DNA of 64,000 nt from Eledone cirrhosa (GCA_964016885.1 OZ024744.1:60264001-60328000); one strand, 5' to 3'; shown: positions 48,515 through 54,014, counted from the first letter of the stretch. The notes: generated from the letters alone by a model not told the origin. Made by a program: numbers and translations.

Positions 48515-48740
48515 TGTAGTAAGACGCCTCACGCTCTTTGATAGAACAACGCCGGTTGAGAACGCCAGAAAGAAAAGACAGACAGCCACTGGAAAGCCGA
48601 CGGATCACACGCCAGATACCAGCCTCTGTACAACACCATTGTTTGTGCTACAACAAAAAATAAACGTATATTTCATCTCTAATTTCTGCTGTTATTATGT
48701 CACTTGCATCTCGATAACATCTACAACTAATACTGCTAAA
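48515..48740 (+). repeat. 5' LTR of element B (TG…AA)
   Basis: Direct repeat of 53789-54014, containing AATAAA. Confidence 0.95.
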
Positions 48741-49633
48741 GTGGTGACCGACGTAAGAATTTAACGCAGCCCTTCTTTTTCATCAATTGACCTTTTATTG
48801 CCACATTGTCGGCCCTTTTTTTCGCATCTTGCGAAAATAAAAAATAATCCTTTTAAAATTATCGAAAAGTTAGTAGTATTTCAAAAACTTTTTGCTACAC
48901 TTGACAACAACAACGACAGCAGCAGCAGCGACAACATTGTTTAACCACTGACCAAAACAGGGAATAGTGAGTGGCAGCTTCATAGCCTTACCGACGCAAA
49001 CCACCACACATCGGAAATATCAAAACGATTCATTCGTGTCGATAATTTAGAGCAACTTTTTTTTATTCACTTGAATATTCCATTTCCGTTGCCAACTTTT
49101 TCGCAACTTACAGAAGAAAAAAGAAAAAAGTGTATTTTTCCAATGTGGCGTTGCGTTCCTTCCCCGTTTTGTAACGGACACATTTTTTGAATTGCGTATG
49201 TGTTCCATGACTGATCTAGAGAGAAGAGACTAAACTTTTTTTTGTGAACATAACTGCCCCGCATGGGGATATACATGCCTTACCTTTTTCTTAGGGCTTT
49301 TTAGCCACTGGCTACCTTTGTTGATATCCAACGCGGATATATTTTTTTAAAAAAAAGCAAACATTTTTTTTTCTTCCTCTTTTTTACCTTATTTGATTTG
49401 GCTGGTTCGTTGAAGCAACGCGAGGGGACAGACGTTGAAGGAAAAATTTTTTTTTAAAGATATATATCTGTATTTTATGTATTTTGCATATTTCCTTATG
49501 TTTTGAATGTCTGTTTCTTTTTGCCCTTTAACTTTTTCTCAATATTGGCTGTTCTCTTTTCACTGTACAAGGGTGCATTAATTGCTCTTTCGATATATAG
49601 GTATATATATTTGTTTTAATTTTAAAAGTTGAC

Positions 49634-50417
49634 ATGAATGTACCACATTTGCCCGCCTTTACTGGAAAACCTAAGATGTGGTTTGCCCAGTTACAGGCGT
49701 ATTTTACGGTCTGTAAGACCGAATCTGACCAGCGCCTCGCTGTACTGATTAGCGGCCTTCCCCCTAATCTAGCAGATTCGGTCCAAGACCTAATTACAGA
49801 CCCCCCCCCCCCCCTCTGACTTGACGTATGAGTTTTTGAAGGGCGAGATTTTGAGGAGGAATTGTAAGTCGGTAGAGAGTCGTTTTCGGTCACTGATCGA
49901 GGACGAACGATTAGGTGACAGGACCCCTACCGCTTTTCTCCGGCATTTGCGGGATTTGAGCGATTCCGAAGATCAGGATAGCCCTTTCCTGAAGCAATTG
50001 TTCTTCTCTCGCCTACCTCAAGAGGTACAGGCGATCCTAGCCCATATGCTAGAGGTGAATACCCTGGATCACATTGCTGTCTCTGCTGACAAAATTGTAG
50101 AGGTGACGAAGAGAGACACTTCGAAGCCAAAGTACGTTGCTTCCTCTTCTCTTCCTCAATCACGCTCATCAGCGTCTGATGACAAATTAATCACCACAAT
50201 GGAAGCCATGACTCGTCAAATGGCGGAGTTGTGCACGGAATTCAGGTCCTTTGGACGGCAGAGGAGCCGCTCACGACGTTATTCAACTTCTCGCCACCGT
50301 AGCCCTTCCAACACACCAGGAACAACATATTGTTATTACCATGAAAGATATGGTAAAAAAGCCGCCCGTTGTAGGCCTCCTTGTGCTTACGAGGGAAAAG
50401 ACGACCAGAGTCACTAA
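49634..50417 (+). CDS. gag: Gag of element B (CHCC knuckle), with a single +1 frame break in the C14 run at 49801-49814
   Basis: [24 protein letters not shown]…[18 protein letters not shown]…[18 protein letters not shown], colinear with gag A. Confidence 0.8.
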
Positions 50418-53400
50418 CGGCGGCTAGTGCGCTCTGCGAAACAACATCTAACCGCTACTTTTTCATTGAGGACCTGCTGTCAGGTAGAGCTTTTCTGGTT
50501 GACACAGGTGCAGCTTGTTCCGTATGGCCTGTGTGTTGTATGAAGGAGACTCCCCCTGAGACGCCTATTGAGTTGCAGGCAGTAAATTGTTCGCCGATTC
50601 GAACTTTCGGACAAATCTCGTTACCTTTGCAGTTTCGTAATCTGCGGCGCGAGTTTAAATGGATATTTACTGTCGGTGCCTTGCCGTATCCGATTCTAGG
50701 CGCGGATTTTCTCCACCATTTTTCATTGACGGTGGACCTTCGTCGTAAACGCCTAATTGATGGCATCACGGGATTAACTGTTGTTGGCAAGGTAGCAGGA
50801 GTTCCAACGGTTAGCCCGACATTTTTTCTTGCTAACACCGGTGATCCTTTCCATGCGTTGTTGAACTCGTTCCCGCAACTGACTCGGGGGAATTTTCGAT
50901 TTGATGAACCAACTCATACCACGGAGCACTTCATATCTACAACTGGTGCTCCCGTTTTCTCTCGCCCTCGTCGCTTGCCTCCGGACAAACTCAAAGCAGC
51001 ACGATCAGAATTTGATCATATGCTGCAAATGGGGATTATTCGTCCGTCCACGAGCCCGTGGGCGTCCCCATTGCACGTGGTACCGAAAGCGACTGGTGAT
51101 TGGAGACCTACTGGAGATTATCGACGCTTAAATTCGATAACGGAACCGGACCGTTATCCTATCCCTCATCTGCAAGACTTTGCGCCTTCGTTGCAGGGAT
51201 GCAAGATATTCTCCAAACTGGATTTAATTCGTGCGTACCATCAAATTCCTGTCCATAAAAATGACATTCCAAAAACGGCTATAGTTACGCCATTTGGGTC
51301 TTTCGAGTTTTTGACTATGCCGTTCGGATTAAGGAATGCCGCTAGTACTTTTCAGCGGTTTATGGATGAGGTTACTCGCGGCCTCGATTTCGTCTATACC
51401 TATATTGACGATCTGCTCATTGCTAGTTCTTCTCCAGAGCAGCATACGCACCATTTGAATCTTCTTTTCCGCCGATTGAAGGCGTATAACGTGCAGCTTA
51501 ATGCACCCAAATGTGTTTTTGGTGCTGAGTCACTGACTTTCTTGGGTCACGTCATCGATGCTGACGGAATTCGACCCCGGCCTGAGCGAGTTAAGGTCAT
51601 AGAGGATTTGCCTCCACCGACCTCACTACGTCAGTTACGCCAGTTCTTAGGTCTGGTTAACTTTTATAGGCGTTTCGTGCCAAATTGTGCCAAGTTGCTT
51701 TTCTCCCTGACAGAAATTTTGAAAAATTGTCGGAGGAAGAACAAAGATATTTCTTTGACAGACACTCAACTTGCTGATTTTCAGCACGCAAAATCTGTTT
51801 TGGCTAATGCTTCGTTACTGACTCACCCGGTACCCGGTGCAAAGCTAACGCTTTGTGTTGATGCATCGGATATCGCTGTGGGCGCAGTACTACAGCAAAA
51901 CATCAATGGTTACCAGCAACCGCTGGAGTTTTTTTCCAAAAAGCTAAATCCTGCTGAGACGCGCTACAGCACCTTTGGAAGAGAGCTTTTAGCCATCTAT
52001 TTGGCCGTGAAACATTTTTCACATGTGCTAGAGGGTAGACAATTTACTATCCTCACTGACCATAAACCATTGACTTTTGCTTTGAGAGCGAAGGCTGATA
52101 AATACTCGCCCAGAGAGACGAGACACCTTGATTTCATCTCGCAATATACGAGTGATATCCAGCACATTCCGGGTTCACTAAATACAGCGGCCGATGCTTT
52201 GTCCCGCTTGCCCGTGACAGCGATCTCGTCATCCTCTGACATAGATCTGACTCGTTTGGCTGCGGATCAGCCTCCCCTTGAGTCATTGGATGTCACATCG
52301 CCCGAGTTTGCGAATTGCGAGATGAAATACTTGCCTCTGTCGACTGCAGTTGGCCAAATTCTCTGCGACGTCTCTTTGGACGTGCCTAGGCCCTTCGTTC
52401 CAGAGAATCATCGTCGGACCGTGTTTCTGGGATTACATTGTATCTCGCATCCAGGATCTTCTGCCACAGCAAAGCTCATATCAGCTAGATTTTTCTGGCC
52501 AAATATGAGGCGTGAAATTGCTGCTTGGTGCCGTTCCTGCGTCGCTTGCCAGAGATCAAAGGTCCATCGACACGTCAATGCTCCCCTGGGTACCTTTGCT
52601 AACCCAGATGCGCGTTTTTCGCATATTCATATTGACATAGTGGGACCTTGGCCTGTCAGCGATGGTTTTTCTTATCTACTTACCGTCATTGACCGTTTTT
52701 CGAGATGGCCTGAGGCCATCCCCTTGAAAAACATCACCGCGGAGACAACAGCACGTGCTCTTGTGTCTGGATGGATCTCTCGTTATGGAGTTCCATCCAC
52801 AATAACTACCGACCGTGGCCGACAGTTCGAGTCGAGCCTTTTCCTCGAGCTGTCAAAAATAATTGGTGCTAAACGCATTCGAACTATGGCATACCATCCC
52901 GCTTCGAATGGTATGGTGGAGCGTTTTCACCGCCAACTGAAGGCCTCCTTAATGGCCTCAATGGACTCGGCGCATTGGAGCGAGTACCTCCCTATTGTGC
53001 TACTAGGGATTCGGTCAACGGTGAAGGTCGACTTTGGATTTTCACCGGCCGAAGTACTGTACGGTGCCCCTCTGACGTTGCCCGGGCAAATGCTTGCCCC
53101 TATCGATCTTGATGCCCAAGATCACGCTTCCTACGTGTCCCGTTTGCGCTCCTATTTCCAGGATTTGCCGCCAATGGACACTAGGAAACAATCTGTCAAG
53201 ACTGCTGTCCCGAGGGATATTGCCTCGTGGACGCATGTCTTTGTAAGGAATGATACGGTGAAGCCCCCGCTCACACAGCCTTACACTGGACCTTACCGTG
53301 TCTTAGCGCGCTCGGCTAAGCATTTCACGTTAGATATTAAGGGGTCCAGGGTGACAATTACATTAGACAGGCTTAAGCAGGCGCACCTTGATACGGACGC

Positions 53401-53560
53401 TGTGGTTCCTGATCCACGAACCCCTTCGTATTTGCCTGTTCCTGATCCACCATCATCGCCTGTCCCTACACCACCACCATCGCCACGTTACAAGACCACG
53501 ACCCGTTCAGGTCGTAGGGTCCACTGGCCCAAAAAACTGTGCAGCACCGTCTATATTTAG
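50381..53560 (+). CDS. pol: Pol polyprotein of element B (protease-RT-RNase H-integrase), likely entered by -1 frameshift at ~50393
   Basis: 1059-codon open frame with VDTGA, YIDD, RNase H (VDASD, RELLAI, TDHKPL), integrase HHCC, DDE (IDIVGP, TDRGRQF, MVERFHR) and a GPY/F motif. Confidence 0.95.
50393..50436 (+). promoter_or_regulatory. Putative -1 programmed ribosomal frameshift signal (element B)
   Basis: Slippery G_GGA_AAA in gag frame, a 6-nt spacer, then the hairpin CAGAG-T-CACTA-(8 nt)-TAGTG-CG-CTCTG. Pol is in the -1 frame. Confidence 0.75.
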
Positions 53561-53788
53561 ACTATGTTAGCTGCGCCTTTTTTTTTGCCTCTGTGTTTCT
53601 GCTATTCCTTTGCCTTGTTTTTTTTATGCATGCATGTCGTTTTTTTTTTTAACATTTTTCAAATACTTATTCTGGATTCAATTTTTGCTAGAGCGGATAG
53701 CTCCCCCTTGTTGCATTGTTCGCCATCTTACTCCACATGTGAGTAATGACATCGATTTTCAATAATTTGAAAATCTGGCTCGAGGTAC

Positions 53789-54014
53789 TGTAGTAAGACG
53801 CCTCACGCTCTTTGATAGAACAACGCCGGTTGAGAACGCCAGAAAGAAAAGACAGACAGCCACTGGAAAGCCGACGGATCACACGCCAGATACCAGCCTC
53901 TGTACAACACCATTGTTTGTGCTACAACAAAAAATAAACGTATATTTCATCTCTAATTTCTGCTGTTATTATGTCACTTGCATCTCGATAACATCTACAA
54001 CTAATACTGCTAAA
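53789..54014 (+). repeat. 3' LTR of element B
   Basis: Identical by eye to 48515-48740. Confidence 0.95.

What the first reader, a model, noticed from the sequence alone, without database searches (positions are those of the whole stretch)
48515..54014. Very young, possibly active CsRn1-clade Gypsy element with identical LTRs and intact Pol
Seen: the two 226-bp LTRs show no difference by eye, the TSD is a clean GACT, and pol is a stop-free 1059-codon frame with all catalytic motifs, in a window where every other element is decayed. The only lesion is one extra C in a C14 run in gag. Removing it gives …[14 protein letters not shown]…, colinear with gag A. Established: a CHCC gag knuckle, tRNA-Trp PBS and 4-bp TSD characterise CsRn1/Boudicca/Kabuki elements. 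Inference: the break is a homopolymer assembly error or slippage allele, and this is a currently mobile LTR family in a probable cephalopod.
Basis: partly seen in the sequence, partly recalled or inferred. Interest (0 to 1): 0.75.

Follow-up and report, generated by a model that had tools for sequence, protein, structure and literature searches.

The report
Nested Gypsy copy, young but broken
A full-length jumping gene with identical end repeats sits inside a related element, but it is one of dozens of slightly diverged copies and likely settled there about a million generations ago, so it is likely ordinary, apart from its family's older copies being crowded on what is likely the Z sex chromosome.

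Summary
The anatomy is real: 226/226 identical LTRs (TGT...AAA), GACT target duplication, open 1061-codon pol, gag broken at a C14 run. It has the published CsRn1-clade features; no tree with named references was made. 'Very young, currently mobile' is not supported for this copy. At least 77 copies exist; none of 72 loci compared is closer than 0.77%. This copy has 17 private substitutions; its private pol changes look neutral (3 silent, 9 not), and 3 of the 9 hit conserved residues. Identical LTR pairs occur in 4 of 39 copies, 3.5 expected by chance. The C run has 6-16 letters among 54 copies and ends gag in 17 of 42, so slippage is likelier than a one-off assembly slip. The family was recently active: 8 of 42 copies keep both frames open, and a run that I showed to be RNA holds relatives, not this copy. 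Side result: 15 of 77 copies lie on C28 (4.6% of the genome), which carries coleoid Z marker genes. The scan had noted other CsRn1-like elements in this genome, not this one.

The parts
48511..48514 (+). 5' copy of the 4-bp target duplication GACT
   Evidence: 19 of 19 other family-A loci run straight across this site with a 4-base overlap
48515..48740 (+). 5' LTR, 226 bp, TGT...AAA
48742..48754 (+). primer-binding site complementary to the host tRNA-Trp 3' end, with a 2-base bulge shared by 35 of 42 copies
48755..49633 (+). 5' leader, rich in A/T runs whose lengths vary among copies
49634..49819 (+). gag, first part: 61 codons from ATG to a stop just after the C run; DUF7041 hit
49801..49814 (+). 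C14 run at which gag is broken; 6-16 letters in 54 copies
49794..50417 (+). gag, second part, in another frame; CX2HX9CX3C knuckle at 50331-50384
50393..50399 (+). predicted -1 ribosomal frameshift heptamer G GGA AAA (41 of 42 copies), with a predicted hairpin 6 bases downstream (-12.9 kcal/mol, no shuffle control)
   Evidence: function inferred
50375..53560 (+). open pol frame: protease, RT, RNase H, integrase, GPY; no env or chromodomain hit
53772..53788 (+). position of the plus-strand primer; not a purine tract (longest purine run next to the LTR is GAGG); same text in 37 of 42 copies
53789..54014 (+). 3' LTR, identical to the 5' LTR
54015..54018 (+). 3' copy of the target duplication GACT
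44836..55999 (+). host element A: a second CsRn1-type family, about 70% identical internally, LTRs 44836-45267 and 55620-55999, GTGC duplication, frames broken; the finding interrupts its pol between RNase H and integrase

Best explanation
This is a full-length Ty3/Gypsy retrotransposon with CsRn1-clade features, inserted into the pol gene of a related element, and it is likely a settled, non-autonomous copy from a burst some 0.8-2.2 million generations ago rather than an element moving now. The family likely works by the standard route: LTR-driven transcript, Gag-Pol by -1 frameshift at G GGA AAA, tRNA-Trp priming, integration with a 4-base duplication. After insertion this copy likely mutated without selection, and replication slippage likely lengthened the gag C run and broke the frame, as in many siblings. 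The LTRs are likely still identical only because 226 bases are too few to record that age.
For: Shown: anatomy. 77 exact pol-motif copies; star-like tree, nearest pair of 42 copies 0.51%, nearest to this copy 0.93% in pol; closest of 72 loci 0.77% over 2218 bases, 0.87% full length. 17 private positions in 5048 internal bases. Private pol changes 3 silent to 9 non-silent against 759:2352 sites, i.e. neutral; changes shared by 3 or more copies have dN/dS 0.28, singletons 0.64. 3 of 9 private amino-acid changes hit conserved positions. Identical LTR pairs 4 of 39, expected 3.5. The C run varies 6-16, some runs are interrupted, and every other long homopolymer of the leader and tail varies too; 17 of the 21 closed gag frames end at this run. 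Host tRNA-Trp genes match the primer site. Dating uses 2.4e-9 per site per generation (PMC7656900, passages; a rate from another species).
Against: Zero LTR differences has P = 0.09 at this copy's internal divergence, and host A plus this element show 1 LTR substitution where 4.0 are expected (P = 0.09), so the age may be lower. The 3:9 ratio alone does not differ significantly from the shared class (Fisher P = 0.11). Only 40 of 1293 first-look candidates were scored and 72 loci compared; an unsampled parent would inflate 'private' changes. The run length at this locus was not checked in reads.
Confidence: 0.74

Rival explanations
1. The insertion is much more recent, but it was copied from an already mutated, unselected parent and mobilised in trans by proteins of open copies; the private changes predate the insertion.
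For: LTR clocks of both nested elements read low (0/226 and 1/375; joint P = 0.09). 8 of 42 copies have both frames open. Non-coding LTR elements with a related R/U5 and leader are numerous, so mobilisation in trans is plausible.
Against: No copy sharing the private changes was found among 72 loci or the 40 best pol hits. Family-wide, LTR divergence per lineage (0.68%) is at least the internal private rate (0.46%), so most private changes postdate insertion.
Confidence: 0.16
2. One reading: the copy is intact and active, and the gag break is a homopolymer error of the assembly.
For: A small length error in a 14-base run cannot be excluded without reads of this locus; pol is open with all catalytic motifs.
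Against: The run spans ten lengths in 54 copies, including interrupted runs and one interrupted form shared by two loci. Neutral private changes, three at conserved residues. RNA contigs carry other letters than this copy at about 100 places.
Confidence: 0.06
3. LTR identity is secondary: gene conversion between the LTRs or collapse in assembly.
For: Zero differences where 1.5-2.4 are expected.
Against: Sibling pairs differ by 0-9 bases, so the assembly does not homogenise LTRs, and chance accounts for the zero class.
Confidence: 0.04

Closest known systems
CsRn1 clade of Ty3/Gypsy (CsRn1, PwRn1, AgCR-1 to 14; PMC2582038, passages read)
   Same: CHCC knuckle CX2HX9CX3C, tRNA-Trp primer site, 4-bp duplication, TGT...AAA ends, overlapped -1 gag/pol as in 9 of 14 AgCRs, GPY motif, no env or chromodomain, about 5.5 kb, recent expansion.
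   Different: No clear polypurine tract; primer site with a 2-base bulge in most copies; a slippage-prone C run in gag; pol only 50-63% identical to the best 120 database hits (two fused proteins 49% and 54%).
Cephalopod CsRN1 elements (PMC6238403, passages read)
   Same: The clade is reported in 9 of 12 cephalopod species.
   Different: The passages I read give no ages or chromosomal distribution for them.
Repeat build-up on the coleoid Z (PMC10925132, text parts 1-2 of 5 and supplement part 3)
   Same: A class of mobile element is denser on Z.
   Different: The paper stresses LINEs at about twofold; its Table S5 lists LTR P-values without direction in the text I saw. Here one LTR family is about fourfold enriched, almost all in its older cohort.

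Membership tests
CsRn1 clade | Gag knuckle CX2HX9CX3C | tested here: met
   (both this element and host A); definition
CsRn1 clade | Primer site complementary to tRNA-Trp | tested here: met
   9 host tRNA-Trp(CCA) genes in 2 of 5 stretches (4 earlier loci gave none); 8 of 9 match the full primer type, this copy with a 2-base bulge
CsRn1 clade | 4-bp target duplication | tested here: met
   perfect in 30 of 42 copies
CsRn1 clade | LTR ends TGT...AAA or TGT...ATA | tested here: met
   42 of 42 5' LTRs
CsRn1 clade | PR-RT-RH-IN order, GPY motif, no env or chromodomain | tested here: met
CsRn1 clade | Polypurine tract before the 3' LTR | tested here: inconclusive
   The position is conserved (37 of 42) but only 7 of the last 14 bases are purines; the paper's alignment figure could not be seen
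CsRn1 clade | Pol groups with CsRn1/Kabuki/Boudicca in a tree | not tested
   No named reference was returned. Named hits are mostly tapeworm proteins, a group whose Pol hits fall mainly in CsRn1 (59 of 81) or Saci2 (PMC12471100, passages): indirect only
Currently active autonomous element | Open gag and pol | tested here: not met
   gag ends after 61 codons
Currently active autonomous element | Near-identical sibling copies | tested here: not met
   closest 0.77-0.93%
Currently active autonomous element | Insertion polymorphism at this locus | tested here: inconclusive
   The empty-site joint in X1 is explained by other A copies; the RAD runs barely cover the junctions
Currently active autonomous element | Transcripts from this copy | tested here: inconclusive
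   RNA run X4 (another sample) holds family sequence with other letters

The most novel reading that the evidence does not exclude
The cephalopod Z chromosome is a refuge for full-length CsRn1 retrotransposons: new copies land evenly, autosomes lose them, and Z keeps them, so the older cohort is about eightfold enriched on Z (11 of 31) while the younger one is not (1 of 22); the family is still transcribed and may still move.
Probability: 0.3. Interest if true: 0.5.

Novelty: new member of a known kind. Interest (0 to 1): 0.25.

Why it matters
The element itself is an ordinary new family of a clade already reported from cephalopods. It is a clear case of identical short LTRs overstating youth. 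If the age-dependent Z enrichment holds in a full census, it would extend the known LINE build-up on the coleoid Z to LTR elements and give a dated series for asking whether Z attracts or merely retains insertions.

Tried and rejected
The look-up of sequencing runs: no RNA holder listed; X4's kind was then tested separately. Reads could not give the run length or the junction state at this locus: contigs pool all copies. First Z markers were inconclusive: the JIP3/SPAG9-like hit is on unplaced C1420, the other RH1 hit on C1 looks RILP-like (recalled; no PDB hit), and PRPS-family hits are on C1256 and C27. A host exon search for a taxon name found nothing. The motif meant to count older-type LTRs (368 matches) is shared with a different non-coding element and lists only C1-C2, so it was rejected as a census. 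The automatic short/long split was unreliable and replaced by LTR identity. A programmed on/off switch at the C run was considered and rejected: other homopolymers vary as much, and the uncommon run lengths fall into frame classes as chance predicts (P = 0.6). Segmental duplication as the cause of the C28 excess: 9 C28 copies share no flank. Literature searches listed no paper on this family or on a gag homopolymer of this kind; only listings were seen, and the library lacks most subscription journals.

Full report
Observation. The two LTRs (48515-48740, 53789-54014) match over all 226 bases, GACT lies on both sides, and the C run is 14 long. pol is open for 1061 codons, with Pfam RT, RNase H and integrase hits and the expected motifs. 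gag starts at 49634 and stops after 61 codons, just past the run; the rest, with a CX2HX9CX3C knuckle, lies in another frame. The element splits the pol of a related element A (about 70% identical). A has broken frames, but its LTRs differ by only 1 substitution in 375 bases plus 4 gaps, and its GTGC duplication is intact. All 19 other A loci fetched are continuous across the site.

Family. The window is G000:C28:60264001-60328000 in a 3.0-Gb genome. An exact gag-flank pattern finds 54 copies and an exact pol motif 77; both are lower bounds. Of 57 element loci fetched first, 41 had two LTRs and a span of 5.3-6.0 kb; with the window these 42 were aligned. The tree is star-like; the nearest pair is 0.51% apart in pol and the window copy's nearest is 0.93%. 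With 16 further loci, 72 had enough overlap; the closest were 0.77% (2218 bases) and 0.87% (full gag-pol). The best genome-wide hit to a 1.5-kb pol piece (2681 of 2708 bits; 40 of 1293 candidates scored) is 1.1% away over 3003 bases. gag is open in 21 of 42, pol in 14 of 42, both in 8 of 42.

Age. The copy has 17 private positions in 5048 internal bases and none in the LTRs (22 against the 42-copy set). Its private pol changes are 3 silent and 9 non-silent, the neutral ratio for 759:2352 sites. Changes shared by three or more copies have dN/dS 0.28 and singletons 0.64 (Fisher P = 0.003), so the family replicated under selection and copies decay afterwards. Three of the nine changes fall at positions 85-97% conserved in 65-80 homologues (80 of 120 hits aligned). 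LTR pairs differ by 0-9 bases (39 of 42 pairs with at most 2 gaps; mean 3.05); 4 are identical and 3.5 are expected. At 2.4e-9 per site per generation (PMC7656900 and PMC13669787, passages; another species' rate) the private load gives 1.4 million generations (0.8-2.2). This may be too old: both nested LTR pairs read low (joint P = 0.09), and an unsampled parent would add private changes.

The C run. Among 54 copies it has ten lengths from 6 to 16, some interrupted. 17 of 21 closed gag frames end there. A/T runs in the leader and tail vary as widely (6-16 and 7-27), and the window holds eight C or G runs of 12 or more. Slippage after insertion is the simplest reading (inferred). A small assembly error at this one locus remains untested, because the contigs pool all copies.

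Mechanism. The clade features in PMC2582038 (passages) are met: knuckle, TGT...AAA ends in 42 of 42, 4-bp duplication (30 of 42 perfect), overlapped -1 frames with G GGA AAA in 41 of 42, GPY, no env. The host has tRNA-Trp(CCA) genes whose 3' ends pair with the primer site (9 genes). 35 of 42 copies, this one included, carry a 2-base bulge; 4 of 42 in both subfamilies have the full match, which may record copying from the primer (inferred). The plus-strand primer position is conserved but is not a purine tract. Frameshifting and priming are inferred, not shown. No tree with named references was possible.

Expression. No listed run was on record as RNA. Laid on a host TCTP gene, X4 gave two CT..AC joints (depth 1971 and 3943) absent from X1, X5 and X7, so X4 is RNA. 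It covers the element's interior at about 3-30, with zero in five bins of flanking A. That depth is near the 3-10 seen on TCTP introns, and contigs show neither strand nor level. X4 differs from this copy at about 100 places; of 23 listed letters the best fetched copy matches 15. So relatives are transcribed weakly in another sample, and nothing points to this copy.

Chromosome. C28 (136.5 Mb, out of size order) holds DDOST and SMARCB1 family hits and one of two FHIP-family genes, all in the list of conserved coleoid Z genes (PMC10925132 supplement); the SPAG9-like and best PRPS hits are unplaced. So 3 of 5 markers fall on C28 and 2 are uninformative; C28 is likely Z and the host likely a coleoid (inferred). 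15 of 77 pol-motif copies are on C28 against 3.5 expected (14 of 76 without the window, P = 8e-6). Among the 54, the older long-LTR cohort has 11 of 31 on C28 and the younger 1 of 22 (Fisher P = 0.009; cohorts assigned by hand, found after looking at the data). Against: the 39 closest pol hits have only 3 on C28 (P = 0.26), the sets overlap, family A shows a weak excess (5 of 39, P = 0.03), and PMC13669787 reports no obvious drop in Z recombination (passage).

Verdict. A real, ordinary new member of the CsRn1 kind; recent family, settled and broken copy. Interest 0.25, mostly for the Z pattern.

Noticed in passing
G000:C28: The family is about fourfold enriched on C28, which carries conserved coleoid Z genes; the excess is in the older cohort.
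   Followed up: partly
window 44836-55999: Host element A is itself recent by substitutions (1 in 375 between LTRs) yet has several indels, a C22 run in gag (46131-46152) and a 42-bp tandem repeat; at least 40 hits at 98% or more to a 400-base piece.
   Followed up: partly
L117-L122: A non-coding element of about 2.75 kb with about 570-bp LTRs shares only part of the LTR and leader (about 77%) with this family; it is numerous and may be a non-autonomous partner.
   Followed up: partly
window 48742-48754 and siblings: Most copies have a bulged primer site; 4 of 42 scattered copies have the full tRNA-Trp match.
   Followed up: partly
window 53772-53788 and 55601-55619: Neither element has a clear polypurine tract before its 3' LTR, yet both families spread.
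   Followed up: no
L007, L008 (C28:8.41 Mb, C2:149.49 Mb): Copies with LTRs in opposite orientations, like rearranged CsRn1-type elements noted earlier in this scan.
   Followed up: no
L110, L111 (C4:353.4 Mb, C4:277.4 Mb): Tandem arrays of tRNA-Trp(CCA) genes, dozens of units.
   Followed up: partly
window 44500-44835, 56004-56420, 17207-17875: The DNA around element A reads like a Helitron Rep/helicase (recalled resemblance; no Pfam hit for 55759-56454), which would make three nested layers.
   Followed up: no
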